From assembly GCA_964422715.1 (NCBI GenBank), contig CAYRCM010000008.1, positions 1,894-65,893 on the forward strand: a stretch of DNA of 64,000 bases, read 5' to 3'. The position numbers were made by a program, and so were the translations under genes. Source of the DNA: an uncultured Myxococcales bacterium. GTDB lineage: Bacteria; Myxococcota_A; UBA9042; PWKZ01; CAYRCM01. Below the pieces are notes generated by a model. The model ran no database searches and was not told the origin of the DNA. It worked only from the letters and a program-made list of their open reading frames with translations. How positions within the stretch are numbered: the stretch's first letter is position 1; each line of letters opens with the position of its first letter. Shown piece by piece: positions 13,386 to 34,223 of the stretch.

Positions 13386-13410
13386 GGTGGGGCCGACGGG
13401 GACACGCTCG

Positions 13411-15440: not shown

Positions 15441-15677
15441 GCTCACCTCATGGCGACCCGCTGGTCGCAGCCCCCCACCGGAGACTTCGGCGCGCAGAGT
15501 AGCAGGTTTCGTGCCATCGAAAAAGGCCCCGTTGCGCCCTCGTTTGCATCGGGGAGGTCCCCTTCGTCGCGAGGCGGCAGGCCCGGCAACGCTGCCAAAC
15601 GGGCGCGGCGGCGCGCCGCCGGGGAAAAAAACCTGCCAAATTGGCAAAGCCGACCCGCGGTGGGGCGTTCCACTGCA

Positions 15678-16703: not shown

Positions 16704-16908
16704 GCTGCACCTCCTTGCGGCTCCCGCGCTGCGGCGGTGCCGGCCGGTCGGGACCGGACCGCGGGGGCCGCGCCCGGCACCGGGCCGCGGATTTGCGCAC
16801 CCCGCATTCGGGGCGGGCGGCGGCGATCATGCCCCAGGGCGCTCCGCCGAAGCAAGCCGCGCGGGCGCGCGCTTTGAAGCCCGGCGTGGCTGTGGTATCG
16901 GTGGGCGC

Positions 16909-19809
16909 ATGGTGAGGCCCGCGCGGCACCGGTTCCTGTGGCTGACGGCGTGGCTCGTGGCGGCCGCCACGGGGCCCGCCGCGGCCATCCAGGACCCGGC
17001 GCTGCGCTGGCAGACGCTCGCCACCCCGCATTTCAACGTGCATTTCCCCGACGGCGGCGAAGCGCTCGCGCGCCGGCTCGCCGGCATTGCCGAGGAGTCG
17101 CACGGGCTGCTCACCCGCGCGCTCGCCACCGAACCGTCCGAGCGCACCGAACTGGTGCTCGTCGACGACGTCGATACCGCCAACGGCTGGACGCGCGCCT
17201 ATCCCTACAACCAAATCCTGCTGTACGCCCACCCGCCCGAGGCCGACAACGAACTCGGGCGCTACGACAACTACCTGCGCGAGCTGTTCATCCACGAATA
17301 CACACACTTGCTGCACCTCGACCAGGTGGCCGGGCTGCCGCGCGGGCTGAACCGCGTGTTCGGCAAGACCTTCCTGCCGAACAACCTCATGCCCGGCTGG
17401 TACATCGAGGGCATCGCGACGCTCGTCGAGACCGAGTTCACGGGCGGCGGGCGCATTGGCAGCGCGCAGTACGACATGCTGCTGCGCACGGCCGTGCTCG
17501 AAGGCACGTTTCTCGACCTCCCGCAGATCACCGACACGCCGCTGACGCGGCCGCGGGGCCAGGTGCCCTACCTCTACGGGTCCTACTTCCTGAAGTACGT
17601 GCGCGACCGCTTCGGCTTCGAGGCGCTCGTCAAGGTGCACCGCGAGTACGCGAAACGGCTCATCCCCTTTGCGGTCAACCTGGTGGCGCGGCGCGCCACG
17701 GGCCATTCGTTCGTGGAACTCTACGCCGACTGGAAGCGCGAACTCACGGCCGAGGTGGGGCGCACGGCCGCCCGGGTGCGCGCGGCCGGCCTCATCGAGG
17801 GACGCCGCCTCACGCGCACGAGCGAAGGGCACGAGAGCCCACGCTACGCGCGCGACGGCCGGCGGGTGCTGTACATCGACTCGACGGGCCGGGCGCGCCA
17901 GAACGTGCGGGTGCTCGATCTTGCCACAGGCCGCGAGACGCCGCTGTTCGCGTGCGAGGGCAGCTGCCAGCGCGTGACCTGGGGCCCGACGGGGGCCGGC
18001 GTCTTCGTGGCCGCGCACGATTTCTTCGGGCGCTACCGCTTCTTTCGCGACCTGTTCGTCTGGACGCCGGGCACCGCGGGCCTCGTCCGCGTCACGGAGG
18101 GAGCGCGGGTGCGCGAGCCCGACCTGGCGCCCGACGGCCGCCAACTCGTCTACGTGACGAACGCCTGGGGCCAGACGCAGCTTGTGCTGCACGACCTGGG
18201 GCTCGGGCGGCAACGCGGGCTGCCGGCCCCCGACAGCGACGTCCAGTACGCCTCACCCCGCTTCTCGCCCGACGGCCGGCAACTCGCCTATTCGGCGTGG
18301 CTGCCCACGACCGGGCAGCGCGACATCTACGTGCGCGACCTCGCAACGGGGGCCGAGCGACGCCTCACGGCCGACGCGGCGCTCGACCTCGACCCGGCCT
18401 GGGCACCCGACGGGAGCACCCTGTTCTTCGCCTCCGACCGGGGCGGCATCTCCAACATCCACGCGCTCCGGCTGGCCGACGGGGCGCGTTTCCAGGTCAC
18501 GAACGTGCTCGGCGGGGCCTTCGAGCCCGACGTGCACCCGGCGGGCGACCGCCTCGTCTACTTGAGCTATCACGCCACGGGCTACGACCTCTACGAACTG
18601 CCGCTCGTGCCGGCCACGTGGCGCCCGGTCGGCCCCGCGGGCGAGCTGGCTGGGGCGCCGCCGCCGGCCCCGTACCTGCCGCCCTCGTACGCCGGCCCGG
18701 CCAAACCCTATCGCGCCTGGCGCAGCGCCTGGCCGCATGCCTGGCGCCCCACCTATCTGTTCAGCGCCGACGGGCTCGCCGAACTCGGTGCCGAAATCCA
18801 GGGCAGCGACGCCCTCGGCCGTCACGCCTACGCCACGGCGGTCTCGTTCGACCTGCCGCGCCAGCGGGTGGGCGTCGCCGCGAGCTACGCGTACGACGCG
18901 CTGCCGGTTGTGCTGTCGACGTCGCTCGCGCACGCCACCTACGACCAGTACGCGTTTTTCAGCGACGAACTGTTCACGTTCGACGAGCAAGCCGTGGCGT
19001 TGGCCCTCGGGCTCAGCCTGCCGCTGCCGCACCCGCGCCGCGCCTTCGCCCTCAGTTCCACCTTCAACGTGCGCTATGCGGTGCAGCGCGGCCGCCCGCG
19101 CGTGCGGCACGACCCGGCCGAGCTCGAGCCCGTCATCCCGCGCTCGGGCTGGCTCGTCGGCGCAAGCTTCGGCTGGGCCTACGACGACACCGAATCGTAC
19201 ACGTACAGCATCTCGCCCGAGCGCGGCCGCTCGCTCTCGATGCGCCTCTCGGTCAACCACCCGGCGCTCGGCAGCCAGTTTCGCACGGTCGCCGCCCGGC
19301 TCGCGTACACCGAGTACGTGCCCATGCCGTGGCCGGGTCAGCACGTGCTCGTGCTCGGGTACAACGGGGGGGTCGCCGCCGGCGATCGGGGCTACCGCCC
19401 GGGCTACGCGCTCGGCGGGCTGCCCGAGCAGGACCTGCTCGTGGCGCTGCTCAACAACGAGGGGCTGAGCGGCCTCTTCCTGCGCGGCTACAGCCCGAAC
19501 CGCTTCGCGGGCCTGCACTTTCACCTCGTCAACGCCGAGTACCGGCTGCCGTTTTTCAACATCTACCGCGGGGTCGACACCTTTCCCCTCTACGCGCGGC
19601 GGCTGACGGCGGCGTTTTTCACCGACGTCGGCACGGCCTACCGGGACCGCTTCGCCTGGGACGCGCTCAAGGTCGGCATCGGCGCCGAACTGCGCCTGCA
19701 GCTCGACCTGTTCTACGGACAGCCGACGCATATCCGCCTCGGCTTCGCGCGGGGCGTCATGGCCGAAGGCGAAACGCAGGTCTACCTGGTCCTCGGCCCG
19801 GCGCCCTGA
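16909..19809 (+). CDS. Omp85-superfamily outer-membrane protein with N-terminal zincin metallopeptidase domain and PD40/TolB-like beta-propeller (966 aa)
   Basis: Signal peptide; HEYTH plus WYIEG; repeated PxxSPDGxxLxY/F motifs; barrel motifs LRGY and FTDVG. Start uncertain (16648-16909). Confidence 0.8.
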   Translation: MVRPARHRFLWLTAWLVAAATGPAAAIQDPALRWQTLATPHFNVHFPDGGEALARRLAGIAEESHGLLTRALATEPSERTELVLVDDVDTANGWTRAYPYNQILLYAHPPEADNELGRYDNYLRELFIHEYTHLLHLDQVAGLPRGLNRVFGKTFLPNNLMPGWYIEGIATLVETEFTGGGRIGSAQYDMLLRTAVLEGTFLDLPQITDTPLTRPRGQVPYLYGSYFLKYVRDRFGFEALVKVHREYAKRLIPFAVNLVARRATGHSFVELYADWKRELTAEVGRTAARVRAAGLIEGRRLTRTSEGHESPRYARDGRRVLYIDSTGRARQNVRVLDLATGRETPLFACEGSCQRVTWGPTGAGVFVAAHDFFGRYRFFRDLFVWTPGTAGLVRVTEGARVREPDLAPDGRQLVYVTNAWGQTQLVLHDLGLGRQRGLPAPDSDVQYASPRFSPDGRQLAYSAWLPTTGQRDIYVRDLATGAERRLTADAALDLDPAWAPDGSTLFFASDRGGISNIHALRLADGARFQVTNVLGGAFEPDVHPAGDRLVYLSYHATGYDLYELPLVPATWRPVGPAGELAGAPPPAPYLPPSYAGPAKPYRAWRSAWPHAWRPTYLFSADGLAELGAEIQGSDALGRHAYATAVSFDLPRQRVGVAASYAYDALPVVLSTSLAHATYDQYAFFSDELFTFDEQAVALALGLSLPLPHPRRAFALSSTFNVRYAVQRGRPRVRHDPAELEPVIPRSGWLVGASFGWAYDDTESYTYSISPERGRSLSMRLSVNHPALGSQFRTVAARLAYTEYVPMPWPGQHVLVLGYNGGVAAGDRGYRPGYALGGLPEQDLLVALLNNEGLSGLFLRGYSPNRFAGLHFHLVNAEYRLPFFNIYRGVDTFPLYARRLTAAFFTDVGTAYRDRFAWDALKVGIGAELRLQLDLFYGQPTHIRLGFARGVMAEGETQVYLVLGPAP

Positions 19810-19814
19810 GCGCC

Positions 19815-19870
19815 GCCCCGCGGGGGACCCTGCCCTCCCGTCCGGCCGCGCGGCCGGACGCGCGCGGGGC
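19815..19870. terminator. GC-rich stem-loop containing a perfect 22-bp palindrome (19839-19860); possible terminator or insulator
   Basis: CGTCCGGCCGCGCGGCCGGACG is self-complementary, and GCCCCGCG/CGCGGGGC pair outside it. No U-tract. Confidence 0.35.
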
Positions 19871-19881
19871 GCTCCGGTCGT

Positions 19882-19908
19882 GGAATAAAGCCCCGTGCCT
19901 GGGGTGTT
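19882..19908 (+). promoter_or_regulatory. Candidate ECF (SigR/SigH-type) autoregulatory promoter
   Basis: GGAAT(19882-86)-N19-GTT(19906-08), 41 bp upstream of the sigma start. SigR/SigH consensus is GGAAY-N18(19)-GTT. Confidence 0.45.
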
Positions 19909-19948
19909 TGGCGGAGCGATTCGTTGGGCCACCGGATGAGGAGCGGCC

Positions 19949-20653
19949 ATGCCATTGCGTCGATCCCGGTCACAACCGGACAGTGTTTTCGAGCAGGAAG
20001 CGCTCGTGCACCTCGGGGCGCTCCACCGCTACGCCGTGCAGCTGTGTCGCGATCCGAGCGAAGCCGAAGACCTCGTTCAGGAAACGCTGCTCAAGGCGTT
20101 TCGCTACTTCGACCGCTACGAGCCGGGCACACGCTGCAAGGCCTGGCTGTTTCGCATCCTGACCAACACGTTCCTGAACAGCCGGCGGGCCCGCGTGCGC
20201 CAGTTCCCGTTGCTCGACAACGTCGATGCAGCCGAACCCGACGCAAGCGAGCTGATCGCGTGGTCCGAGTTCTACGCCGACCCCGAGCGGCGCGCCACGA
20301 GCCGCTCGCTGCGCGACGTGGTCGACGCGGCGCTCGAGGAGTTGCCCGAAGACTTCCGCACGGTCGTGCTGCTCGCCGACCTCGAAGGCTTCGCCTACAA
20401 GGAAATCGCCGACATCATGGAATGCCCGGTCGGCACCGTCATGTCGCGCCTGCACCGGGCGCGCAAAGCGCTCCAGCAGCGCCTCGGCCGCGTTGCCCGC
20501 GCCGAGGGCTGGCTGCCGCGCTCGGCGGCTCCCGCCGACCCCGCGGGCGACGGCTCGGCCGCCGCCGGCCCGGCCTCCCTTGTGGCGTTTCGCGCACAAC
20601 GCCAGGGTGCCCCGCGGCACGCCAACCTGACGAAACGGGATGACGAACGATGA
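19949..20653 (+). CDS. ECF RNA polymerase sigma factor (SigR/SigH, ECF12-like)
   Basis: FEQEAL.HL..L, AEDLVQETLLKA, KAWLFRILTN, region 4 LADLEGFAYKEIADIMECPVGTVMSRLHRAR. GAGGAG RBS. Confidence 0.92.
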   Translation: MPLRRSRSQPDSVFEQEALVHLGALHRYAVQLCRDPSEAEDLVQETLLKAFRYFDRYEPGTRCKAWLFRILTNTFLNSRRARVRQFPLLDNVDAAEPDASELIAWSEFYADPERRATSRSLRDVVDAALEELPEDFRTVVLLADLEGFAYKEIADIMECPVGTVMSRLHRARKALQQRLGRVARAEGWLPRSAAPADPAGDGSAAAGPASLVAFRAQRQGAPRHANLTKRDDER

Positions 20654-21450
20654 GTTGCCAGGACGTACAGAAATTCGTCTACGTGTACCTCGACGGCGAA
20701 TTCGATGCCCGCGAACAGGCCGAATGGGACGCCCATCTGGCCCAGTGCCCGGCCTGCGCGCGGCTCGTCGCGGCCGAGCGCGCCTTCCGCACGCTGCTGC
20801 AGGCCTCGCTGCGCGAGCGCCCGGTGCGCGCCCCGGCCTCGCTCGTGCAGGCCGTGCGGGCGCGGCTCGACGAAGCCGCCGGCGGCGCGCGGCAGCGCAC
20901 ACGCCGGATCTTCGTGTGGGGGCCGGCGCTGGCCGCGGCGGCGGCGCTGACCGTGTTCGTGGCCGTGCGCGCCGCGGGTCCGCGCGCCCCAGACTTCGCC
21001 CCGCCCGAGCTCCGGGCCGACACCGTGGCCCCGCTCGTCGACGGCGCGGCCGAAGTGCATCATCGCGGGCTGCCGGCCGAGGTCGAAGGCCCCGAGACGG
21101 TGCTCGCCTCGAACCTCGGGGCCAAGGTGCCGTTCCGCCCCGTGCCGCCCCTGCCGGCCTCGACGGGCGCGCGGCTGCTCGGCGCCCGCGTGGTCCGGGT
21201 CGACGGCCAACCGGGCATCCAGTTCCTCTACGAGTACCACGGCCGGCGCGTGTCGGTGGTGCAATTGGCCCCCGCGCCGAGCGGGCCCGGCAGCCCGCAA
21301 CTCGCCGGCGCCCCCGTCACGCCGCGGCTCACCGAGTCGCGCGGCTACAACGTGGCGCTGTTCTCCGATCACGGCCTCACGAATTCGGTGGTGTCCGACA
21401 TCGACCAGACCGAACTGCTGCGCATCCTGCCCGCCACCTACCGCCGCTGA
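20650..21450 (+). CDS. Membrane-anchored anti-sigma factor with zinc-binding ZAS (zf-HC2) domain
   Basis: ATGA overlap with the sigma gene. MSCQDV..YLDGE...HLAQCPAC (HxxxCxxC), TM (WGPALAAAAALTVFVAV), then an extracytoplasmic domain. Confidence 0.88.
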   Translation: MSCQDVQKFVYVYLDGEFDAREQAEWDAHLAQCPACARLVAAERAFRTLLQASLRERPVRAPASLVQAVRARLDEAAGGARQRTRRIFVWGPALAAAAALTVFVAVRAAGPRAPDFAPPELRADTVAPLVDGAAEVHHRGLPAEVEGPETVLASNLGAKVPFRPVPPLPASTGARLLGARVVRVDGQPGIQFLYEYHGRRVSVVQLAPAPSGPGSPQLAGAPVTPRLTESRGYNVALFSDHGLTNSVVSDIDQTELLRILPATYRR

Positions 21451-21466
21451 ACGCGCGACCCTCCCA

Positions 21467-22996
21467 TCACGGCGCGGCGCCGATACGCGGCTCGACGACG
21501 AGCGGTGCCGTCGTGAGCGGCACTTCGGCAAAGCCGGCCACGACGTTGACGTCGCCCGTAACGCTCGGGATGCCGGCCCCGTCGGTGACGTAGCTCTCGT
21601 AGTGCGCTCGGCTGGCGTCGCCGACCGGCAGGAAGGCGCTGATGGGGGCCGTACCGGTCGTCCAGGCGACCACGCGGCGCAGGCCGCTGTGCCGGTCGCT
21701 GAACGCGTAGGCGCGCACTTCGGCCGGCAGTTCGGCCACGGGCCCGAGCCAGCGCGCGTGGCGCTCGTCGGTCGTCTGGACGAGCCGCTGCAGGGCGTAG
21801 AACGCCGCGCGCGGCGTGCCGAGCCGCGCGGGATCGGCCCCCGGGCCGGCCCCGTCGTCGATGAGCCCGACGCCGTTCATGGGGCTCTGCGGGTCGCCGC
21901 CGTAGTTGTACCAGTCGACGAGCCCGGCCCAGAGCACGCGGGTGGCCCCGGCGGCGCGGGCCCCGACAAGGCTGCGCACGAGCCAAGCGGCCTGGTCGGC
22001 CTCGGCCCGGACGGCGAGATCGGGACGCGGCTGGCCGGCGTAGGTGGACTGGACCAGCGAATAGAGCGCGGCGGACGAATAGCCATTGCGATCGAGCAGT
22101 TCACGAATGGCAGGGCCCTCGGGCAGGCCCTCGGCGGCGCCGGCGGCGCCGTAATCGGTGACGTGCACGTCGACGGCGTCGAAGGCCCCCTGGTCCTGCA
22201 ACGCGGCCACGACGGCGGACAGGTGGCTGCCCAGGTGGCCGAGCACGACGCGCCCCTGCGGGTCGGCGGCGCGGACAGCGCCCGCGAAAACCGCGACGAG
22301 CTCGGCATAGCGCTGCGGGCTCAACCGGTTCTGGGCGATGGCGTCGGCGGGGGCCTCCATGCACTGCCAGTAGCGCACGCGCACCTCGGGGGCGAGGTCG
22401 TCTTGGCCGTCGCCGTCGTAACGTTCGACCGCGGCGCGCGTGAACGCAGCAAAGCCCTCTTCGAAGCCGTCCGGAAAGACGGGACCCTCGGTGCCGTAGC
22501 GACTCGGGTCGACGATCAGGATGGCGTTGACGGTTTTCTCGGGCGCTGCGCGGAAGACGGCCTGGAGCGTCACGTCGGGGCCGGCGGCCTCGGCAAACGA
22601 TACGGCCGATGTCAGCGTGGGCTGCAGCCGCCCCCAGACGAGCAGGTTGCGCAGCGCCGTCCAGTGCACGTCGAGGGCCACGGCCTGGGTGTCGAGCCAG
22701 GCGCCGAAGGTCTCGTCGGTCAGGCCCAGCTGCTGGCGGAAGTAGGCGAATTCCTGCCCGTAGAGTTGGAACAGCCCGTAGCTCGCCTCTTCTTCGGGCA
22801 GGGGCGGCGGGGTCTCGGGCCCCGCATCGACCGTGTCCGGACCGGTGTCGGGCGGGCCGAGGTCGGGCGCCCCGAGGTCGGGGCCCGTGTCGGGCGCGGC
22901 GGCGTCGGGTGCGCCGGCAGCGCCGCCGCCGCACGCCGTGAGCGAGAGGAGAGCGACTGCGAGCACCGGGACCGCCGTTGCCATCGTCCAGCGCAT
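21467..22996 (-). CDS. Lipoprotein with glycoside-hydrolase clan A (GH39/GH5-like) fold, possibly inactive
   Basis: GGAGG RBS; lipobox LTA-C; PDxG linker; VERYDGDG..D, VRYWQ, VRAADPQGRVVLG, FDAVDVH, GLIDDG...TPRAAFYAL resemble GH39-like barrels. Confidence 0.65.
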   Translation of the reverse strand: MRWTMATAVPVLAVALLSLTACGGGAAGAPDAAAPDTGPDLGAPDLGPPDTGPDTVDAGPETPPPLPEEEASYGLFQLYGQEFAYFRQQLGLTDETFGAWLDTQAVALDVHWTALRNLLVWGRLQPTLTSAVSFAEAAGPDVTLQAVFRAAPEKTVNAILIVDPSRYGTEGPVFPDGFEEGFAAFTRAAVERYDGDGQDDLAPEVRVRYWQCMEAPADAIAQNRLSPQRYAELVAVFAGAVRAADPQGRVVLGHLGSHLSAVVAALQDQGAFDAVDVHVTDYGAAGAAEGLPEGPAIRELLDRNGYSSAALYSLVQSTYAGQPRPDLAVRAEADQAAWLVRSLVGARAAGATRVLWAGLVDWYNYGGDPQSPMNGVGLIDDGAGPGADPARLGTPRAAFYALQRLVQTTDERHARWLGPVAELPAEVRAYAFSDRHSGLRRVVAWTTGTAPISAFLPVGDASRAHYESYVTDGAGIPSVTGDVNVVAGFAEVPLTTAPLVVEPRIGAAP

Positions 22997-23062
22997 GGAA
23001 ACCTCCCTGGGGCACGAAAGGCGCGAGAAGCGTAGCAGCCGGTCGGCCGTCGTCGCAAGGGC

Positions 23063-24034
23063 TCAGGGGACGGCGGGAGGCGCGGCGGGGCCCTCGGCCC
23101 GGCGCGCACGCCAGACGAGCAGCGCGCCGGTCGCGAGCACGATGGGCAGCCCAATCAGCTGCGACGTCGAGAGGACATCGCCAAACCAGAGGCCGCGCGC
23201 GTCGTCGCGCCAGAACTCGACGACGAAGCGCAGCAGCGCGTAGGCCAGCAGCATGCCGAGGAAGAGTTGCCCCGCGGGCCGCGGGCGGCGGCGCAGGAAC
23301 AGCCACAGGCACAGTCCGAAGATGAGCGCCGCGCCGGCCGCCTCGTAGAGCTGCGCCGGGTGCACGGGCAACGAACCCGCGGCGTGCGGCGACAGCAGGC
23401 CGAGCTCGACGTGGTGCTTGAAGGCCGGGCTGTCGAGCGGAAAGCGCAAGGCCCACGGCAAGCGGGTGGGCGCGCCGAAGCAGCACCCGGACAGCACGCA
23501 GCCGATGCGGCCGAACGTGAGCCCCAGCGGCACGCCGACGGCACAGAGATCGGCGAGCGCCCAAAACGAGAAGCGCCGCCAGCGGGCGAGCAGCAGCACG
23601 GCCGGCAAGGCCAGGATGGGTCCGCCGTAGTACGCCAGCCCGCCCTGCCACAGTTTGAACACGCGCAAACAGTCGGCCGCCGGGTAGCACAGCCCCGAGG
23701 CGGCGTCGCAGCGCGCGCCGGCCTTGCCGATGATGCACTGCGCGGCTTCGCGGCACGGCAGCCCGTAGGAGAGCGCGCGGCCCGGCAGCCGCTCCGGCTC
23801 GGTGCACAGATGCACGTAGTCCCAGAAGCCGCCGTCGGCGAGCACGTGCAGCAGCCGGGCGCCCAGGACGCCGAAGACGATCAGGACGAGGGCGGCGTCG
23901 AGGAAGTGGCGCTGGTCGAAGCCCGTACGCCCGGCGAGCCACCAGCCGAGCAGCACGGCCGCCATGAGCCCGAGGGTCAGCAGCGTGAAGTAGGCCGGCA
24001 GCTGCACGATGCCGAGGTCGATGACCGGCGCCAT
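23063..24034 (-). CDS. lgt: Prolipoprotein diacylglyceryl transferase with a 6-Cys insertion
   Basis: GARLLHV, WQGGLAYYGG, GRIGC..SGCCFG, HPAQLYE, YALLRFVVEFWR, STSQLI. Confidence 0.92.
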   Translation of the reverse strand: MAPVIDLGIVQLPAYFTLLTLGLMAAVLLGWWLAGRTGFDQRHFLDAALVLIVFGVLGARLLHVLADGGFWDYVHLCTEPERLPGRALSYGLPCREAAQCIIGKAGARCDAASGLCYPAADCLRVFKLWQGGLAYYGGPILALPAVLLLARWRRFSFWALADLCAVGVPLGLTFGRIGCVLSGCCFGAPTRLPWALRFPLDSPAFKHHVELGLLSPHAAGSLPVHPAQLYEAAGAALIFGLCLWLFLRRRPRPAGQLFLGMLLAYALLRFVVEFWRDDARGLWFGDVLSTSQLIGLPIVLATGALLVWRARRAEGPAAPPAVP

Positions 24035-24035
24035 G

Positions 24036-25070
24036 CTAGGAGGCGCGCTCCACGGACTTGCGCGCGTTGAAGGGGCTGGACTTGACGAAGAGCATCTCGG
24101 CGAGCAGCGCCACGACCCCGAGCGTGATGGCGATGTCGGCGACGTTGTACGTCGGCCAGTGACGGGTCCCGATGTACATGTCGATGTAGTCGATGACCAC
24201 GTGATAGAGCAGCCGGTCGACGAGGTTGCCCATGGCGCCGCCCAGGATGGCGGCAAACGCGATCATCGCCGAGCGGTGCCCGGGTTTGAGGCGCGCGTAG
24301 ATGACGAGGATGACGACGGCCGCAAGCGCCGAGATGAGCGTGAGGATGATGTGGCGGATGGACTCGGGCGCCGTGTTGAGGAACCCCCAAGCCGCACCCG
24401 GGTTTTCGGCGTAGATGAAGCGCAGGAAGCCCGGGATGAGCGTGACCGTGCGGTGCTGCAGCACGAAGAGGTCACCCGGGCGCACCGGCGCGGCGAGGTC
24501 GACGCCGAGCGTGGGCGCGCGGAGCGGGTAGGTGTAGCGCGCGGCCACCTCGACGGCGTCGTCCGGGTCGAGGGCGGGCACCCGTTCGCTCAGGAATTGC
24601 GCGAGCGACTTGCCTTTGTAGTGTTCGAGGACCCGGCTGCGGCGTTCGGCGGCCGACCAGTCGGGCCGGAGGTAGCTGAGCCAACGGTCGACGACGAGCG
24701 GTGTTTCGCGGTGCACGACGCGCGGCGCCAACGTCAGGTCCCGGCGGTGAAACGTGACGTACGCGAAAGCGGAACCGGGGGCAAACGCATCGGCGAACGC
24801 CGGGGCGGCCGGGTCGAGCCCCGGCGGCTCGCGCAGTTGCAGCAGGTTGTCCTTGAGCGCCGCATCGGTCGCGTCGTCGCCCGTGAGCCCGAAGCGCGCG
24901 ATGACCACGTCGCGCAACGGCCGGCCGGCTTCTTCGGGGGTGACGACGAGCGGCTGCGGGTGCTCGGGATTGGCGAGCACGCGGTCGGCCCACACCTTGC
25001 TCAGGAGGTCGGCCGCGACCACCAAGGCCACGGCGGCCACGAGAAACCAGTAGCGGCCAAAGCGCTTCAT
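24036..25070 (-). CDS. lspA: Signal peptidase II with a ~175-aa insertion (344 aa)
   Basis: ATGA overlap with ileS stop; DLLSK in TM1, ENPGAAWG, GAMGNLVDR, VIDYI, YNVAD (both catalytic Asp present). Confidence 0.9.
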   Translation of the reverse strand: MKRFGRYWFLVAAVALVVAADLLSKVWADRVLANPEHPQPLVVTPEEAGRPLRDVVIARFGLTGDDATDAALKDNLLQLREPPGLDPAAPAFADAFAPGSAFAYVTFHRRDLTLAPRVVHRETPLVVDRWLSYLRPDWSAAERRSRVLEHYKGKSLAQFLSERVPALDPDDAVEVAARYTYPLRAPTLGVDLAAPVRPGDLFVLQHRTVTLIPGFLRFIYAENPGAAWGFLNTAPESIRHIILTLISALAAVVILVIYARLKPGHRSAMIAFAAILGGAMGNLVDRLLYHVVIDYIDMYIGTRHWPTYNVADIAITLGVVALLAEMLFVKSSPFNARKSVERAS

Positions 25071-28000
25071 GCGTCCTCCGCGGGCGGTGCCATTTTGGCG
25101 ATGTGCACGGCAATGGCCTCTTTCTGGATGTCGAGCACGGTGAATCCCTCGGCGGCCTCGACCGGCCGGGCCTCGACGGCCAGCAACTCGGCCTGCACGT
25201 AGTCGCGGTGTTCGGCGAGCGCGCCGAGCAGCGTGTCGGAGGCCGTGTGATAGGCGAGCCGGATGCGGTCTTCCACTTCGAGGCCCTGGTCCTTGCGCAG
25301 CATCTGCACGCGCCGCACGAAGTCGCGCACGAGCCCTTCGCGGCGGAGCTCGTTGGTGAGCGTCGTGCGCACGGCGACGCGGCTGCCTGCGTCTTCGGCA
25401 ATGGCGAGGTCGCCCTCGGCCTGCCACGCGATGGCGACGTCGTCCGGCAGAATCTCGACCGGCGTGCCGTCGACGGTGAGCGTCGCGAGCCCGTCTTTGG
25501 CGAGCCGGGCGCGCAGCGACTCCGGGTCGGCGGCCTTGATGGCCGCGGCAACCGCCTGAACGTTCTTTGCAAAACGCGGGCCAAGGCGTTTGAAGTCGGG
25601 CTTGACCGACCAGGTGACGGGCAGCGTTTCGCCGGGTTTCAGCACGGTGACGCGCTTGACGTTGAGTTCGTCCATGAGCAGCGTGGCGAAGCGCTCGGCG
25701 GCGCGGGCCTCGGCGGCGTCGGCCGGTTGCACGAGCAGTTCGGCGAGCGGCTGGCGCACGCGCAGCCCGGCCTGGTTGCGGGCCGCGAGCCCCGCCGAGG
25801 TGAGGCGGATGGCCACCGCCATGTCGTTCATGAGCGCCTCGTCGACGAGGCCGGCCTCGAACGTTGGGAAGTCGCAGTGGTGCACGCTCTCGGGGGCCGT
25901 GCGGTCGTGGGCGCGCACGAGGTTCTGGTAGATGGCCTCGGTCACGTGCGGCACCATGGGCGCCAGCACCTGGACGAGCCCGACCAGGCATTCGTAGAGC
26001 GTCTCGTACGCCTGCACGCTGTCCTGCGATTCGCGACCGCGCCAGAACCGGCGACGGCTGCGCCGCACGTACCAGTTGCTCAGGTCGTCGATGAAGCGTT
26101 CGGCGGCGCGCCCGACCGCCCGGCAGTCGTAGCCGCCGAAGCCCTCGTGGGCCGTGCGGATGAGCTGCTGCAAGTGGCTGAGCGCCCAACGGTCGATGTC
26201 GGGCCGGCTGCCGGCCGGGCTGCGCTCGGCGGCGGGCACGTAGCCGTCGACGCGCGCATAGTTGACGAAGAAGGCGTAGGTATTCCAGAGCGTGTTGATG
26301 ACCTTGCCGCGCACCTCACGGCCGGCCGCGTAGCCGAAGTTGAGGTTGGCCGTGGGGTCCTGGCCGCAATAGATCCAGCGCATGACGTCGGCGCCCATCT
26401 GTTCGACCGCGTCGTCGAACCAGATGGCGTTGCCGAGGCTCTTGTGCATCTCGCGGCCCTGCTCGTCGCGGACGAGCGCGTGGCCGAGCAGCGTGCGGAA
26501 CGGCGCGCGGCCCTCGATCATGGTGCTCATGGCAAGCAGGGCGTAGAACCAGTTGCGGAACTGCCCGGGGAAGCATTCGAGCACGAGATCGGCCGGAAAC
26601 CACTGCTCCCAGTACGCGCGGTCTTCGTGGTAGCCCATGGTCGAGTAGGGCACGATGCCGGCGTCGAGCCAGGGGTTGCCGACGTCTTCGACGCGCCGCA
26701 TGCGGCCGCCGCATTGGGGACAGGCGAGTTCGACGGCGTCGATCCAGGGGCGGTGCGGCGTGTGCCCGGCGAGCGCATCGAGCCCGGCGACGGCGCGGCT
26801 GTCGAGTTCGGCGCGGCTGCCGATGACGTCGAAATGGCCGCAGCCGGACGTACGGCACACCCAGATGGGCAGGGCCAGCCCCCAGTAGCGCTTCTTCGAG
26901 ATCATCCAGTCGCGCATGTTGCGCAGCCAGTCGAGTTCGAGTTCCTTGCCAAACGCCGGAATCCAGCGGATGTGCTCGACGACGTCCATGATTTCCTGTT
27001 TCCAGGGGGCCATGGCGATGAACCACTCGTCGACGAGCCGGAACAGCAGTTCGGAGCCGCAGCGCCAGCAGTGCGGGTAGCTGTGCGGGTAGCGCTCGAC
27101 GTGCACGAGCAGGGCCTTCTTTTCGAGCGCCGCGAGGATGCGGTCGGTGGTCTCGTGCGACTGCGCGTGCTGCGCCACGAGCCAGTCGAAGCCCGCCACG
27201 TAGTGGCCTTCCTCGTCGAGCGGGGCGATGGCGACGAGCCCGTGTTCGCGGCCGAGTTCGTAGTCCTCTTTGCCGCAGCCGGGGGCGATGTGCACGATGC
27301 CGGTGCCTTCGCTGTCGGACACGAGCGCCCAGGGGATGACGCGGTGGCAGGTGGTGCCCTGACGGTCTTTGAGCGTGGCGTCGTACGGCACGCCGCCCGG
27401 CGTCTGCTGGGCCGGCAGATCGTCGAACGGGCCGTCGTACGTCCAGCCCACGAGCTCAGAGCCGAGCACCGTCCCGAGCACTTCGAAGCCCCCGCGGCTT
27501 TTCAGGAATTCGGCGGGACTCTGGAGCGGCGGCACGCCTTCGACCCAGCCACCGCCGGCCACGCCGGCGCGGAAGTCGGCGTCTTTGCGCCGCAGTTCGA
27601 GGGTGCCGGCGGCCAGGTAGTAGACGTCGCCGCCGGCCCGCACGCGGGCGTACACGAGGTCGGGGTGGACGGCCGCGGCCACGTTGGACGTGAACGTCCA
27701 CGGCGTGGTGGTCCACACGAGCAGGAACTCGCGGTCCCGGCCGCGCAGCGGGAAGCGCAGGAAAACGGCCCGATGCGCGGTGAGCTTGTAGCCCTCGTGC
27801 ATCTCCATCTGGGAAAGCCCGACGCCGCAGCGCGCGCACCACGGCATGACGTCGGTGCCGCGGTAGACGAGCCCGCGCTCGTGGCATTTCTTCAGGAAAT
27901 TCCAGATGGCGTAGTTGTTGCCGGGCGACATCGTGTAGTACGAGTCGCTCCAGTCCATCCAGTAGCCAAGCCGCTCCGACTGCTTCGTCTGCACGGCCGA

Positions 28001-28381
28001 GAAGCGCCGCACGCGCTCCATGCACTTCTCGACGAAGGCGCCGATGCCGTAGGCGTCGATGTCGCGCTTGCTGCGGAAGCCGAGTTCCTTCTCGACTTCG
28101 ACTTCGACCCACAGGCCCTGGCAGTCGAAGCCGTTCTGGTAGCGCAACGCATGGCCGGTCATGGCCTGGTAGCGCTGGTAGACGTCCTTGAGCGTGCGGC
28201 CCCAGGCGTGGTGCACGCCCATGGGGTTGTTGGCCGTGATGGGGCCGTCGAGAAACGAGTAGCGCGGCCCGCCGGCGCGCAACGCCCGCAGTTTGTCGAA
28301 GGCCTTCGTTTCGGTCCAGAACGCCTGGATGTCGTGTTCCAGGTGAACGATGTCGAACCACGGATCGACCTTGTGGTACAT
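25067..28381 (-). CDS. ileS: Isoleucine--tRNA ligase, type 2, with non-canonical GVHH and EMHKS motifs
   Basis: DGPITANNPMGVHH, GFDCQGL, editing VWTTTPWT and GTGIVHIAP, HSYPHCWR, DWMISKKRYWG, DLSNWYVRRSR, type-2 C-terminal EGLVRDFVRRVQMLRK; precedes lspA. Confidence 0.95.
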   Translation of the reverse strand: MYHKVDPWFDIVHLEHDIQAFWTETKAFDKLRALRAGGPRYSFLDGPITANNPMGVHHAWGRTLKDVYQRYQAMTGHALRYQNGFDCQGLWVEVEVEKELGFRSKRDIDAYGIGAFVEKCMERVRRFSAVQTKQSERLGYWMDWSDSYYTMSPGNNYAIWNFLKKCHERGLVYRGTDVMPWCARCGVGLSQMEMHEGYKLTAHRAVFLRFPLRGRDREFLLVWTTTPWTFTSNVAAAVHPDLVYARVRAGGDVYYLAAGTLELRRKDADFRAGVAGGGWVEGVPPLQSPAEFLKSRGGFEVLGTVLGSELVGWTYDGPFDDLPAQQTPGGVPYDATLKDRQGTTCHRVIPWALVSDSEGTGIVHIAPGCGKEDYELGREHGLVAIAPLDEEGHYVAGFDWLVAQHAQSHETTDRILAALEKKALLVHVERYPHSYPHCWRCGSELLFRLVDEWFIAMAPWKQEIMDVVEHIRWIPAFGKELELDWLRNMRDWMISKKRYWGLALPIWVCRTSGCGHFDVIGSRAELDSRAVAGLDALAGHTPHRPWIDAVELACPQCGGRMRRVEDVGNPWLDAGIVPYSTMGYHEDRAYWEQWFPADLVLECFPGQFRNWFYALLAMSTMIEGRAPFRTLLGHALVRDEQGREMHKSLGNAIWFDDAVEQMGADVMRWIYCGQDPTANLNFGYAAGREVRGKVINTLWNTYAFFVNYARVDGYVPAAERSPAGSRPDIDRWALSHLQQLIRTAHEGFGGYDCRAVGRAAERFIDDLSNWYVRRSRRRFWRGRESQDSVQAYETLYECLVGLVQVLAPMVPHVTEAIYQNLVRAHDRTAPESVHHCDFPTFEAGLVDEALMNDMAVAIRLTSAGLAARNQAGLRVRQPLAELLVQPADAAEARAAERFATLLMDELNVKRVTVLKPGETLPVTWSVKPDFKRLGPRFAKNVQAVAAAIKAADPESLRARLAKDGLATLTVDGTPVEILPDDVAIAWQAEGDLAIAEDAGSRVAVRTTLTNELRREGLVRDFVRRVQMLRKDQGLEVEDRIRLAYHTASDTLLGALAEHRDYVQAELLAVEARPVEAAEGFTVLDIQKEAIAVHIAKMAPPAEDA

Positions 28382-28491
28382 CGGTGCCTCTCGCCATGGG
28401 TCGTGGGCGCCCGGCCCACCGCGCGGGCGACGCCAGCCCGCCGCGGTTGCCGCCCGCCCCCCGCGGGAACGGCGGCGCGGCGTGGGTGCCT

Positions 28492-28520
28492 CTTAAATGT
28501 CGAATGCCCGCGAATGTCAA
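28492..28520 (-). promoter_or_regulatory. Candidate sigma70 promoter of the ileS-lspA-lgt operon
   Basis: Minus-strand TTGACA (28520-28515) followed 17 nt later by AT-rich TTTAAG; weak -10. Confidence 0.4.
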
Positions 28521-28611
28521 GCCAAAGCGCCAGTTCCGGGCCCGGCTCCGGGGCCCGGCCGTTGGGCCCCGCGCGGGCGCCCCGCAAGGCCCATGCGAAG
28601 GGCTAACATCC

Positions 28612-28640
28612 TTGACTTGCGGGCGGTTCTCTGGTACCCG
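28612..28640 (+). promoter_or_regulatory. Candidate sigma70 promoter for the DUF4398-like/OmpA operon
   Basis: TTGACT-N17-TACCCG with extended TG; the -10 is poor. Confidence 0.3.
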
Positions 28641-28709
28641 AGTCTCGTTTTGCGCGAGGCGTAAGACGGGCCGGCGCCCCGCAAAGGGCACCCGGCAGGA
28701 GCGAATGCC

Positions 28710-29183
28710 ATGCGACCCATCAGCGCTGCGTTGACCCTGGCGCTTTCTCTCTTCGCCATCGGCTGCGGCGCCATCCGCACCTCCACGGCCATCGTCGCGG
28801 CCGACGCGGCCATCGACAAAGCACGGGTGGCCCGCGCCGCCGAATTCAACGAATCGCTCTATCTCTTCCACAAGGCGCAGCTCTACGCCTCGCAGTCGCG
28901 CTTCCGAAACGGGTTTTCCGACTACCAGGTGGCCGAACTCTACGGTCGCAATGGCGAAAAATTCGGCAACGAAGCCAAGCTCGAAGCCGACCGGCAAGTC
29001 CAGCGCAAGCAGGAACGCGACGCCCGCCACGAACGGCTGCGGCTCCTGCGGATGCAGTACCAGCCGCAGGGTGGGGCGCCGGCAACGCCGACCGCCCCAT
29101 CCGCCACGCTCGCGCCGCCCCCCGAGCCGCCGCCGGCCGCCCCGTACGGCGCGCCCCCGGTGGCTCCCGGTCGCTGGCGCTAG
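28710..29183 (+). CDS. Helical lipoprotein, DUF4398-like
   Basis: AGGAG RBS; lipobox AIG-C; Ala-rich helix (A..AA..A, YLFHKAQ..A); Pro-rich tail; upstream of an OmpA gene as is usual for DUF4398. Confidence 0.7.
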   Translation: MRPISAALTLALSLFAIGCGAIRTSTAIVAADAAIDKARVARAAEFNESLYLFHKAQLYASQSRFRNGFSDYQVAELYGRNGEKFGNEAKLEADRQVQRKQERDARHERLRLLRMQYQPQGGAPATPTAPSATLAPPPEPPPAAPYGAPPVAPGRWR

Positions 29184-29217
29184 GATCTGCAAGGCCCCGT
29201 TGTTCGAGGACACCATC

Positions 29218-30336
29218 ATGCGCACGCAGTCCGCACAGCAATCCGCAGCCGCCCGGGTGCCCGACCCGCGGCGGTCGCGCGTCCCCCTCGGTCTGCTCTC
29301 GGTCGGCCTGCTCGCCCTCGCGGCGTCGTGCGTGTCGGCCGGCACGGTGCAAAGCCGCAGCCAGGAGCTCGACACGTTGCTGCTGCGCATCCAGCAGCCG
29401 GCCGCGATCTGCGCCCCACGCGAGCTCGCCACGGCCGAGGCCTTCGTCGAATTCGCGCGCCACGAGAGTTCGGCCGGCCATACGCTCTACGCCAAGATGT
29501 ACCTCGACCGGGCCCACAAGGCCGCGCAAGAGGCGTTCGTCAAGTCCAACTTCGACTACTGCGAGCCCGACACCGACAACGACGAAATCCGCGACTCGCT
29601 CGACCGCTGCCCCAAAGAACAAGAAGACTTCGACCTCATCCAGGACGAAGACGGCTGCCCCGACTTCGACCGCGACAACGACGGCGTCATGGACGATGTC
29701 GACCGCTGCCCCGACATCCAGGAAGACCGCGACGGCTTCCAGGACGAAGACGGCTGCCCCGATCCCGACAACGACCAAGACGGCATTCCCGACGCCCGCG
29801 ACCAGTGTCCGAACGACCCCGAAGACCGCGACGGCTTCCAGGACGAAGACGGCTGTCCCGACGCCGACAACGACCAGGACGGCATCCTCGACACGGCCGA
29901 CGGCTGCCCGAACGAAGCCGAAGACAAGGACGGCGACCGCGACGACGACGGCTGCCCCGACGTCTACCAGAACGTCGTCATCGCCGACGACGAAATCAAG
30001 ATCATGCAGGAAGTGCTCTTCCAGCACGGGCGCTCGCGCATCCTGTCCGAATCGTTCGGGCTGCTCGAAGAAGTGGCCAAGGCCATGCGCGACAACCCGA
30101 CGTTCCGCGTCGAGATTCAAGGCCATACCTCGTCGGTCGGCAGCGACCGCTCCAACCTGGCGCTGTCGCGCAAGCGTGCCAAGGCCGTCTGGTCGCACAT
30201 GACGGGCATCAACCGCATTCCGAAGGCGCGGCTCTCGTGGCAAGGCTACGGCGAATCGCAACTCCTCTGCATCGAAGAGACCGAAGCCTGCCACGCCAAG
30301 AACCGCCGGGTGGTCTTCAAGATCCTCTCGCGGTAG
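29218..30336 (+). CDS. OmpA-family peptidoglycan-binding lipoprotein with TSP type-3 repeats
   Basis: Lipobox LAAS-C; four 33-aa DxDxDG/DGCP repeats; OmpA-C domain (VEIQGHT, NLALSRKRA, GYGESQ, NRRVVF). Confidence 0.9.
   Translation: MRTQSAQQSAAARVPDPRRSRVPLGLLSVGLLALAASCVSAGTVQSRSQELDTLLLRIQQPAAICAPRELATAEAFVEFARHESSAGHTLYAKMYLDRAHKAAQEAFVKSNFDYCEPDTDNDEIRDSLDRCPKEQEDFDLIQDEDGCPDFDRDNDGVMDDVDRCPDIQEDRDGFQDEDGCPDPDNDQDGIPDARDQCPNDPEDRDGFQDEDGCPDADNDQDGILDTADGCPNEAEDKDGDRDDDGCPDVYQNVVIADDEIKIMQEVLFQHGRSRILSESFGLLEEVAKAMRDNPTFRVEIQGHTSSVGSDRSNLALSRKRAKAVWSHMTGINRIPKARLSWQGYGESQLLCIEETEACHAKNRRVVFKILSR
29566..29961 (+). repeat. Four 99-bp coding TSP3 (Ca-binding) repeats
   Basis: PDxDxDxDG..D..DxCP...EDxDGxxDxDGC repeated four times. 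Confidence 0.85.
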
Positions 30337-30408
30337 CCGCACCGCCGCCCCCTCCCATCCACGGCGCCGCCCTGCGCCCTGCCGGGCGCCGGAAAGCTGC
30401 CCTGCCCC

Positions 30409-31260: not shown

Positions 31261-31455
31261 CCGCGGCCTCGGCCCGCCGGCGCGCGGCAACCGCAGGGTG
31301 CCGCCGGGCGGCAATGGCGGCGCCGCCGCTCGAACGTCGAACCGAAAGGCGAAGGGGATCGGTCGCTGCGGCGGGCGGTCGTTCGGGAAGCGGATGCGGG
31401 CGCGGCCGGTCGGGGGCGGGCCCGGCGGGCCGCCCGGCCACCCTGAGGCGACGCG

Positions 31456-34095: not shown

Positions 34096-34223
34096 GGTCG
34101 TCCTCCTCGCGGCGCGCCCGCTTCCTGGCTCGGGTCCCCCCGGCTCGGCCGCCGTCGCCGAGCCCTGGTGCAAGCGGCAGGCCAACCGGCCGCGGGCCCA
34201 AAATCCGCGGCCGACCTGTTGCC

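What the first reader, a model, noticed from the sequence alone, without database searches (positions are those of the whole stretch)
24450..24974. Signal peptidase II (LspA) doubled in size by a ~175-aa insertion after TM1
Seen: between DLLSKVWA and IPGFLRFIYAENPGAAWG there are ~175 extra in-frame residues (344 aa total versus ~160-170 typical), and both catalytic Asp motifs are intact. Established: this is the periplasmic beta-cradle region near the substrate and the globomycin/myxovirescin binding site. Weak inference: the insertion ends (VVTPEEAGRPLRD...; APVRPGDLFV) resemble S4-like domain termini. It could change substrate range or antibiotic sensitivity.
Basis: partly seen in the sequence, partly recalled or inferred. 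Interest (0 to 1): 0.7.

Follow-up and report, generated by a model that had tools for sequence, protein, structure and literature searches.

The report
LspA with periplasmic S4-derived double insert
This is a genuine lipoprotein signal peptidase (LspA) from an uncultured myxobacterium, doubled in size by a conserved, well-folded 171-residue periplasmic insertion that descends from two copies of the normally cytoplasmic, RNA-binding S4 domain; nobody has described this form and its function is untested.

Summary
Window 24036..25070 (-) encodes a 344-aa LspA lying between ileS and lgt. All catalytic and signature residues are present. There are 171 extra residues (34-204) between TM1 and the first beta-cradle strand.

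It is not an assembly artefact. Two sludge metagenome runs each assemble it identically, and a third run holds a ~96% variant whose changes in the insert are mostly synonymous.

About 80 relatives of 311-387 aa carry the same insert. All are from uncultured Myxococcota-type MAGs or metagenomes. An exhaustive profile search of 1.84 billion proteins found the insert only inside LspA (68 clusters).

AlphaFold models it with high confidence (pLDDT ~95). No Pfam family or PDB fold matches the whole insert.

The insert is two diverged S4-type modules joined by a helical linker. Relatives with a single ~70-aa module link it to bona fide S4 domains: hhalign gives 96.9%, and a PDB sequence search returns almost only uS4, RluD and TyrRS.

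The modules are acidic and periplasmic, so RNA binding is unlikely. My best guess is a substrate-side cap on the beta-cradle. Any effect on substrates or antibiotics is untested.

Verdict: a new variant of a known enzyme.

The parts
24036..25070 (-). lspA, 344 codons plus stop; lipoprotein signal peptidase (peptidase family A8), long form
   Evidence: ORF, ATGA overlap with the ileS stop. (PF01252 at 118 bits, TIGR00077 at 103 bits). (PDB LspA structures). (AlphaFold pLDDT 94.9, pTM 0.90).
24978..25064 (-). TM1 (residues 3-31), carrying the conserved D21 and K25; the N-terminus is positively charged and so cytoplasmic
   Evidence: helix 3-31. (D21 and K25 invariant). (coordinates).
24459..24971 (-). 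The insertion proper: residues 34-204, 171 aa, periplasmic, acidic (pI 5.6, net charge -4)
   Evidence: the gap relative to the Pfam model and PDB LspA. (insert-only AlphaFold model, pLDDT 95.5). (found only in LspA). (charge).
24711..24962 (-). S4-derived unit 1 (residues 37-120). It has the near-invariant HP motif, a strand, helices 52-60 and 64-75, strand 76-78, a long loop, strands 101-106 and 117-120, and the conserved PPR motif.
   Evidence: single-unit profile against the N unit: Prob 96.9%, P 1.4e-10. (N unit against C unit: Prob 81-82%, P 1e-5). (HMMER unit hit at 41-69). (conserved H37, P38, G49, P116, R117). The direct match to S4 seeds is weak (P 0.04-0.09).
24618..24710 (-). Helical linker between the two units (residues 121-151; helices 123-134 and 140-151)
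   Evidence: DSSP on the models. No similarity to anything.
24447..24617 (-). S4-derived unit 2 (residues 152-208): helices 156-163 and 169-178, strand 180-184, and the V-x-x-G-D-hydrophobic strand 201-204
   Evidence: against verified S4 seeds: Prob 60%, P 9e-5, score 22.1; 0 of 200 column-shuffled controls reach it, max 14.8. (against single-unit LspA inserts: Prob 97.5%, P 8e-12). (HMMER unit hit at 149-210).
24087..24452 (-). Canonical LspA core (residues 207-328): beta-cradle strands, N223/G225, TM2-TM4, and the catalytic D294 (24189..24191) and D312 (24135..24137)
   Evidence: Foldseek to 5dir and 6ryo: E 1e-10 to 4e-8, rmsd 1.8-2.5 A over about 121-126 columns. (coordinates).
25067..28381 (-). 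ileS (isoleucyl-tRNA synthetase, 1104 aa), upstream gene of the operon
   Evidence: tRNA-synt_1, Anticodon_1, DUF5915. (ileS lies upstream in 9 of 24 related loci).
23063..24034 (-). lgt (prolipoprotein diacylglyceryl transferase, 323 aa), downstream gene of the operon
   Evidence: PF01790, 182 bits. (E. coli Lgt 5azb). (lgt lies directly downstream in 16 of 24 long-form loci).

Best explanation
**What it is**
This is the housekeeping lipoprotein signal peptidase of an uncultured, high-GC Myxococcota-type bacterium from activated sludge. It is encoded in an ileS-lspA-lgt operon.

The catalytic machine is a normal LspA: four TM helices, a beta-cradle and an Asp294/Asp312 dyad. It should cleave diacylglyceryl-prolipoproteins in the usual way.

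**What is added**
A rigid 171-residue periplasmic domain has been added in the loop that links TM1 to the first beta-cradle strand. The domain is two diverged copies of an S4-type (alpha-L) module joined by two helices.

**How it probably arose (inferred)**
- An ancestral LspA acquired one ~70-aa S4 module at this site. LspAs of 239-276 aa still have that form.
- The module then duplicated in place and was elaborated.

**What the modules do now**
The modules are acidic and lie outside the cytoplasm. They have most likely lost RNA binding and been re-used as a protein scaffold.

The function I commit to is inferred, not shown. The domain is a fixed cap that enlarges the beta-cradle platform on the substrate side. 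It would contact or sort the mature part of incoming prolipoproteins. The closest analogy is the tandem PDZ domains of RseP, which gate access to that intramembrane protease.

**Confidence by step**
- Identity and architecture: about 0.95.
- S4 ancestry: about 0.85.
- Cap or gate function: about 0.35.
For: **Shown: LspA identity and intact active site**
- PF01252 and TIGR00077 score above their cutoffs.
- Alignment to 9emz, 5dir and 6ryo places D294 and D312 on the catalytic Asp residues.
- The signature residues are conserved in 81 relatives: all invariant except G225, which is near-invariant.
- Foldseek matches the core to 5dir and 6ryo.

**Shown: housekeeping context**
- The gene overlaps the ileS stop, and lgt starts 4 nt downstream.
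- lgt is adjacent in 16 of 24 related loci and ileS is upstream in 9 of 24.
- In M. xanthus the lspA copies sharing an operon with lgt are the housekeeping ones (PMC8689077).

**Shown: a real, selected, folded insert**
- Independent assemblies agree, and a variant has 11 synonymous and 3 non-synonymous changes in the insert.
- About 80 relatives at 30-46% identity cover more than 85% of the protein.
- AlphaFold gives pLDDT 94.9 and pTM 0.90 for the whole protein, and 95.5 for the insert alone.

**Shown: restricted to LspA**
- The insert-only profile was searched against 1.84e9 representatives. It gave 68 hits, all LspA or LspA fragments.

**Shown: S4 ancestry**
- Ten S4 seeds were verified by Pfam.
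- The single-unit LspA insert profile matches those seeds: Prob 96.9%, P 2e-10, over 51 of 54 columns. Shuffled controls reach at most 15.9 against an observed 47.7.
- The same profile searched against all PDB sequences returns 38 S4-domain proteins among 40 hits. These include uS4 (3e-4), RluD residues 8-66 (1e-3), TyrRS and YbcJ.
- Both units of the long insert match the single unit at Prob 97%, and match each other at Prob 82%.
- HMMER finds two units in the window protein and in 44 relatives.

**Shown: acidic**
- The median pI of the inserts is 5.2, against 10.0 for the S4 seeds.

**Inferred**
- Periplasmic location: from the canonical topology, with a positive N-terminus, TM2-TM3 loop and C-terminus.
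- Proximity to the substrate site: the beta-cradle is proposed to hold the residues C-terminal to the cleavage site (PMC6952399).
Against: **On function and placement**
- There is no functional data of any kind.
- I could not inspect model coordinates or PAE. How the insert sits relative to the active-site cleft is therefore unknown.

**On S4 ancestry**
- No Pfam S4 hit for the window's own units, even at E <= 10.
- Foldseek of the whole insert against the PDB gives nothing below E ~1. RluD (2ist) appears only at E 3.5, prob 0.03.
- The link of unit 1 to S4 is only transitive. Its direct hhalign match is P 0.04-0.09.

**On the housekeeping role**
- Whether the same genome also has a short LspA was not determined.
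Confidence: 0.55

Rival explanations
1. The insert is an antibiotic shield. It sits over the beta-cradle and pocket entrance and lowers access of LspA-targeting macrocycles (myxovirescin, globomycin) made by neighbouring myxobacteria or actinomycetes. That would give intrinsic resistance.
For: The lineage is myxobacterial, and myxobacteria make myxovirescin. Producers are known to protect themselves through their lspA genes (PMC8689077). The insertion is next to the beta-cradle, under which the apolar part of myxovirescin binds (PMC6952399).
Against: The gene sits in the housekeeping ileS-lspA-lgt operon, not in a biosynthetic cluster. The only giant gene nearby is a TPR protein, not a PKS/NRPS. 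Known self-protection works through extra lspA copies, not added domains. Every conserved residue that contacts the antibiotics is retained. The position of the insert relative to the pocket is unknown.
Confidence: 0.15
2. The insert is a docking module. It holds LspA to another periplasm-facing component of lipoprotein biogenesis (Lgt, Lnt or LolCDE) so that substrates are handed on directly.
For: lspA and lgt are translationally close, and lgt is often duplicated next to long lspA. The Lgt of these lineages carries its own conserved six-Cys periplasmic insertion. S4-type modules are generic interaction surfaces (inference).
Against: The Lgt insertion is also present in Myxococcota loci where the window LspA matches only the core (no detectable match to this insert), for example the Haliangium MAG L047. 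The two insertions are therefore not specifically coupled. There is no interaction data.
Confidence: 0.15
3. The insert is a tolerated passenger domain with no effect on enzyme function. It persists only because it does no harm.
For: No function can be shown here. The canonical core is complete without it.
Against: It is kept across relatives as divergent as 30% identity, with conserved motifs (HP, G49, PPR, V196, G199). A close variant has mostly synonymous changes within it. It has a confidently predicted compact fold packed against the core (pTM 0.90). Exporting 171 residues has a cost.
Confidence: 0.1
4. The modules still bind nucleic acid, as cytoplasmic S4 domains do. Either they bind periplasmic or extracellular RNA or DNA, or the topology is inverted.
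For: Homology to the S4 RNA-binding domain.
Against: The inserts are acidic (median pI 5.2, net charge -6), whereas the S4 seeds have pI 10. The canonical N-in topology puts them in the periplasm. The basic residues typical of S4 helix 2 are not conserved.
Confidence: 0.03
5. The feature is an assembly chimera or a mis-called ORF.
For: None found.
Against: Two runs give identical contigs at 106x and 22x depth, and a third study has a diverged copy without indels. About 80 independent homologues have the same architecture.
Confidence: 0.01

Closest known systems
Canonical LspA (peptidase A8), e.g. P. aeruginosa 5DIR/9EMZ and S. aureus 6RYO/6RYP
   Same: The four-TM core, the beta-cradle strands, 14 of the 15 signature residues checked (D285 is D/E), the Asp dyad, and genomic linkage to ileS and lgt.
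   Different: Canonical enzymes are about 155-190 aa, with about 8 residues between the TM1 lysine and strand 1. This protein has 179 residues there, forming a separate folded periplasmic domain.
S4 RNA-binding domain (Pfam PF01479/PF13275), as in uS4, RluD, TyrRS C-terminus, Hsp15 and YbcJ
   Same: The order helix-helix-strand ... G-D-strand. There is significant profile-profile and profile-sequence similarity through the single-unit LspA inserts. The best full-length match is the N-terminal S4 of RluD, including its leading strand.
   Different: The modules are periplasmic, acidic, below every Pfam threshold, duplicated in tandem with long loop elaborations and a helical linker, and embedded in a membrane protease. 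To my knowledge no extracytoplasmic S4 domain has been described. The full-text searches found none linked to LspA.
Single-unit LspA forms (239-276 aa) from metagenomes, e.g. P0176 and P0172
   Same: The same insertion site and the same S4-type module. The HP-type motif after TM1 is frequent but not universal in these forms (A3 shows H at about half, with N, Q, K alternatives). Nearly all are unnamed metagenome proteins; one carries a Myxococcota MAG label.
   Different: They have one module of about 70 aa instead of two plus a linker. They probably represent the ancestral state (inference; rough tree).
M. xanthus LspA1-4 (housekeeping pair next to lgt; two copies in the myxovirescin cluster)
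   Same: Same phylum. The lspA-lgt operon marks the housekeeping role (PMC8689077).
   Different: No added domain is reported for those proteins. Their lengths were not examined here. No cultured myxobacterium appeared among the long forms in the scan of 185,579 species genomes.
RseP (site-2 protease) with tandem periplasmic PDZ domains. This is a functional analogy only, recalled from my own knowledge.
   Same: Two small tandem domains inserted in a periplasmic loop of a membrane-embedded protease, next to the substrate entrance.
   Different: An unrelated protease family and an unrelated domain fold. A gating role for the LspA insert is speculation.

Membership tests
LspA / signal peptidase II (peptidase family A8) | Sequence match to PF01252 / TIGR00077 above the curated cutoffs | tested here: met
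   PF01252 at 118.1 bits (cutoff 25). TIGR00077 at 103.1 bits (cutoff 73.95)..
LspA / signal peptidase II (peptidase family A8) | Catalytic aspartate dyad and the conserved D, K, N, G, G-A-x-G-N-x-x-D-R and F/Y-N-x-A-D residues | tested here: met
   D294 and D312 align with P. aeruginosa D124 and D143. D21, K25, N223, G278, A279, N282, R286, D294, N309, A311 and D312 are invariant in 81 relatives; G225 is near-invariant (90% or more). D285 is D or E in 80 of 81.
LspA / signal peptidase II (peptidase family A8) | Four transmembrane helices with a beta-cradle; fold match to solved LspA | tested here: met
   AlphaFold helices at 3-31, 236-260, 266-289 and 310-328. Foldseek to 5dir (E 1.5e-10, rmsd 1.8 A) and 6ryo/6ryp.
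LspA / signal peptidase II (peptidase family A8) | Cleaves diacylglyceryl-prolipoproteins; inhibited by globomycin and myxovirescin | not testable with these tools
   Needs an enzyme assay or complementation of an lspA depletion strain.
S4 RNA-binding domain (PF01479 / PF13275) | Sequence match to the Pfam S4 models | tested here: not met
   No S4 hit at E <= 10 for the insert, for its two units, or for 45 family members scanned individually.
S4 RNA-binding domain (PF01479 / PF13275) | Remote homology detectable by profile methods | tested here: met
   Single-unit LspA insert profile against verified S4 seeds: Prob 96.9%, P 2e-10. The same profile against PDB sequences: 38 of 40 hits are S4 proteins, best E 3.3e-4. 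The window's unit 2 directly against S4: Prob 60%, P 9e-5, with 0 of 200 shuffles reaching it. Unit 1 is linked only transitively.
S4 RNA-binding domain (PF01479 / PF13275) | Alpha-L fold (two helices packed on a small sheet) confirmed by structural superposition | tested here: inconclusive
   The secondary-structure order in the models fits. Foldseek with the whole 185-residue insert gives only E 3.5 for RluD.
S4 RNA-binding domain (PF01479 / PF13275) | Binds structured RNA through a basic surface | tested here: not met
   Only the basic surface was tested, not RNA binding itself. The inserts are acidic (median pI 5.2, net charge -6), against pI 10 for the S4 seeds. The predicted location is periplasmic. 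RNA binding needs an experiment.

The most novel reading that the evidence does not exclude
The tandem S4-derived domain would be the first extracytoplasmic use of the S4 fold. On this reading it acts as a substrate gate on LspA. It would change which prolipoproteins are processed, or how they are handed on. As a side effect it could alter sensitivity to globomycin and myxovirescin-type inhibitors. It would then be a natural example of re-engineering the entrance of an antibiotic target.
Probability: 0.25. Interest if true: 0.75.

Novelty: new variant of a known kind. Interest (0 to 1): 0.6.

Why it matters
LspA is an essential enzyme and a validated antibiotic target. Every structure and mechanistic model so far comes from minimal enzymes of about 160-190 aa.

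**For LspA biology.** A conserved clade with a large, rigid periplasmic domain grafted beside the substrate and inhibitor cleft is a natural experiment. It tests what the beta-cradle side of the enzyme does. It could also show how substrate selection or inhibitor access can be modulated.

**For domain evolution.** Here a classic cytoplasmic RNA-binding module (S4) has been captured by a membrane protease, exported, duplicated and stripped of its basic character. That is an unusually clear case of a domain being re-used for a new purpose.

**Practically.** These proteins are annotated only as 'signal peptidase II', and no database marks the insert.

Tried and rejected
**Searches on the whole insert that found nothing**
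- Pfam and NCBIfam on the insert and its sub-segments gave only noise such as Ligase_CoA_2 and HMG_box.
- The PDB sequence search with the long-insert profile gave nothing below E 1.4.
- Foldseek of the full model recovered only the LspA core.
- Foldseek of the insert alone gave no hit below E ~1 against the PDB. It gave none below E 0.67 against viral structures.

**Dead end**
- The word-indexed homologue search with the 70-aa single-unit profile returned nothing, not even its own members.

**Hypotheses checked and dropped**
- A nearby antibiotic gene cluster: the 3608-aa ORF is a TPR protein, and its antisense 4344-aa ORF has no Pfam hit.
- A second lspA in the window: none found by tblastn.
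- Specific coupling of the LspA insert to the Lgt Cys-rich insert: the Lgt insert is wider in Myxococcota.
- One S4 domain split by a nested insertion: rejected in favour of two units. Both halves match a complete single unit and match each other.
- The apparent read 'joints' have 21-letter sides from unrelated contigs and are not real junctions.

**Analyses that gave little**
- Extending the internal repeat into the following strand (TLAP against TLIP) added no score.
- The NJ tree of the core is rough. The sample is biased, the alignment is 135 aa and there are no support values. I use it only as weak support for few origins.
Full report
**1. The observation**

The window is about 70% G+C. 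On the minus strand, 24036..25070 is an ORF of 344 codons. Its ATG overlaps the stop codon of a 1104-aa isoleucyl-tRNA synthetase gene (ATGA). An lgt gene starts 4 nt after its stop.

- Pfam Peptidase_A8 matches residues 207-328 to model positions 24-142 of 142, at 118 bits.
- TIGR00077 (lspA) scores 103 bits against a cutoff of 73.95.
- The solved LspA structures (9emz/5dir from P. aeruginosa, 6ryo from S. aureus) align only to residues 205-332.
- In that alignment D294 and D312 fall on the catalytic D124 and D143.
- The TM1 residues D21 and K25 correspond to D23 and K27.
- P. aeruginosa has 8 residues between that lysine and the residue aligned to Q205. This protein has 179. The net insertion is therefore 171 residues (34-204; window 24459..24971).

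**2. It is real**

- The stretch 23000-26000 lies on a single contig, with no difference and no gap, in each of two sludge-metagenome runs (depth 106x and 22x).
- A wastewater run from another study holds a ~96% identical copy.
- Of the 14 substitutions that copy shows inside the insert, 11 are synonymous and 3 are conservative (L156F, Y151F, N75H). There are no indels.
- The small 'joints' listed have 21-letter sides from unrelated contigs and are noise.

**3. It is a family**

- The protein search returned about 80 proteins of 311-387 aa. They cover more than 85% of the query at 30-46% identity. All carry PF01252 only, and the names given are 'signal peptidase II' from Myxococcales, Myxococcota or Deltaproteobacteria MAGs.
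- In the 81-sequence alignment A1 the LspA signature residues are conserved: all invariant except G225, which is near-invariant (90% or more).
- The insert also has conserved positions: W27, H37, P38, G49, P116, R117, V196 and G199.
- A scan of one genome for each of 185,579 species found the long form in about 24 genomes. All are MAGs (Myxococcota, Myxococcales, 'Bradymonadales', Deltaproteobacteria), and none is a cultured myxobacterium.
- lgt follows directly in 16 of 24 long-form loci, as two tandem copies in 7 of them. ileS precedes in 9 of 24.
- In M. xanthus the lspA copies that share an operon with lgt are regarded as the housekeeping ones (PMC8689077). I therefore read this gene as the housekeeping enzyme.
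- No second lspA lies in the 64-kb window.

**4. The insert as a domain**

- AlphaFold2 with A1 gives pLDDT 94.9 and pTM 0.90 for the whole protein. TM helices are at 3-31, 236-260, 266-289 and 310-328, with a mixed alpha/beta domain between residues about 36 and 208.
- The insert alone (alignment A2) gives pLDDT 95.5.
- Foldseek finds LspA for the core (5dir at E 1.5e-10) but nothing for the insert. The best non-LspA hits are E ~1 in the PDB and E 0.67 in viral structures.
- No Pfam, NCBIfam or PDB sequence match exists for the long insert.
- An exhaustive HMMER search of 1.84 billion representative proteins with the insert-only profile gave just 68 hits. Almost all are 310-360 aa with the domain at about residues 30-215, or are fragments.
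- I checked ten of the weak or short hits with Pfam. Seven are Peptidase_A8 and none matches another family significantly.

The domain therefore appears to live only inside LspA.

**5. Where the domain comes from**

Among the weaker hits were LspAs of about 250 aa with a ~70-residue insert at the same site (P0176, P0172). A search with P0176 found about 25 more of 239-276 aa (alignment A3). Their insert reads like an S4 domain, for example 'FRQLLEQKLPWSEADALDRMVKRDARINGKRAAGAETPVKAGDEILI'. I tested this in three ways.

(a) Profile against S4 seeds
All were verified as PF01479 or PF13275.
- hhalign of the single-unit insert profile against them gives Prob 96.9%, P 2e-10 and score 47.7 over 51 of 54 columns.
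- 100 column-shuffled controls give a mean of 8.5 and a maximum of 15.9.

(b) Unbiased search of the PDB
- The single-unit profile (A4) searched against all 177,635 PDB sequences returns 40 hits at E <= 10.
- 38 of them are S4-domain proteins. They include uS4 (3.3e-4), RluD residues 8-66 (1e-3, including the leading strand), eS4, the TyrRS C-terminal domain and YbcJ.

(c) The long insert against the single unit
- The single unit matches the C-terminal part of the long insert (residues 148-212) at Prob 97.5%, P 8e-12.
- It matches the N-terminal part (36-125) at Prob 96.9%, P 1.4e-10.
- The two parts match each other at Prob 81-82%, P 1e-5.
- The C-terminal part matches the S4 seeds directly at Prob 60%, P 9e-5. 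None of 200 shuffles reaches that score.
- Plain HMMER with the unit model finds two units in the window protein (41-69 and 149-210) and in 44 relatives.

The insert is therefore two S4-derived units (about 37-120 and 152-208) joined by a two-helix linker (121-151).

The secondary structure of the models fits the S4 order for unit 2: helices 156-163 and 169-178, then strands 180-184 and 201-204. It fits for unit 1 as well: helices 52-60 and 64-75, then strands 76-78 and 101-106.

The canonical LspA motif before strand 1 is not part of the S4 match. In P0176 'RRRTVEVF' corresponds to E. coli 'LGDTVPLF'. The G-D strand of the S4 unit lies upstream of it (my reading of A3).

**6. What it probably does**

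The N-terminus (MKRFGR), the TM2-TM3 loop (RLKPGHR) and the C-terminal tail are positively charged. The canonical N-in topology is therefore kept, and the insert is periplasmic (inference).

- The inserts are acidic: median pI 5.2 and net charge -6, against pI 10 for the S4 seeds. RNA binding is therefore unlikely.
- The beta-cradle is proposed to hold the substrate residues just after the cleavage site. The lipid chains, and part of myxovirescin, lie beneath it (PMC6952399).
- The pTM of 0.90 suggests the insert is packed in a fixed way against the core.

My best-supported reading is an exapted protein scaffold that enlarges the substrate-side platform of LspA. It would act as a cap or gate for the mature part of prolipoproteins, with a probability of about 0.35. 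The rivals are:
- an inhibitor shield (0.15);
- a docking site for Lgt, Lnt or Lol (0.15);
- a neutral passenger (0.1);
- retained nucleic-acid binding (0.03);
- an artefact (0.01).

I could not examine coordinates, so the geometry remains the key missing piece.

**7. Comparison and novelty**

- The core is a full member of peptidase family A8; every sequence and fold feature tested is met.
- The insert is a remote homologue of S4. It fails the Pfam thresholds, and it lacks the basic surface that RNA binding would need. I call it 'S4-derived', not 'an S4 domain'.
- Full-text searches found no paper linking LspA to S4 or describing such an insertion.
- Databases label these proteins only as signal peptidase II.
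- A rough NJ tree of the core groups 97 of 103 insert-less sequences in one clade. It needs 5 gains or losses of the insert. That is compatible with few origins, but it is weak evidence.

The possible origin of the module from the S4 of RluD is speculation. RluD's gene often neighbours lspA in other bacteria (my own knowledge), and it gives the longest S4 alignment.

Verdict: a real, conserved and previously undescribed variant of a known enzyme. Interest 0.6.

Noticed in passing
window 23063..24034 (-), Lgt residues ~77-120; also loci L001-L039, L047, L027, L068: The Lgt encoded just after lspA has a ~45-residue insertion with six cysteines (C-x21-C-x6-C-x9-C-x6-C-x5-C) before the W-GG motif. 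Pfam LGT is split into two stretches, and E. coli Lgt (5azb) aligns only from residue 119. The insertion is conserved in all 18 long-LspA loci that include lgt, and in other Myxococcota loci (a 4-Cys version in two). It is absent from the Nitrospira- and Smithella-type loci.
   Followed up: partly
window 21467..22996 (-): A 509-aa ORF directly downstream of lgt begins with a lipoprotein signal peptide and lipobox (…ALLSLTAC GGG). It has no Pfam match. It is a likely substrate of the operon's own enzymes.
   Followed up: no
window 47246..58072 (+): A 3608-aa protein made largely of TPR repeats. The 4344-aa ORF on the opposite strand (45929..58963) has no Pfam hit and is probably a high-GC shadow ORF.
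   Followed up: partly
loci L001, L002, L009, L010, L014, L016 (and P0002's contig): In 7 of 24 long-form loci, two tandem lgt genes follow lspA. The second copy is only ~30-35% identical to the window's Lgt.
   Followed up: no
window 25067..28381 (-): The IleRS is a long form (1104 aa) with a C-terminal DUF5915 domain. The ileS genes upstream of lspA in related loci are only 25-28% identical to it, so different IleRS types sit at the same position.
   Followed up: no
proteins P0176-P0201, P0222, P0172 (alignment A3): A separate group of metagenomic LspAs of 239-276 aa carries a single ~70-aa S4-type module at the same site. P0198 (389 aa) has two clear units, and P0167 (397 aa) and P0260 (433 aa) are even longer. 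The insert size in this clade therefore varies stepwise.
   Followed up: partly
window 1..64000: There is no tRNA gene and no Rfam family at gathering threshold anywhere in the 64 kb.
   Followed up: yes
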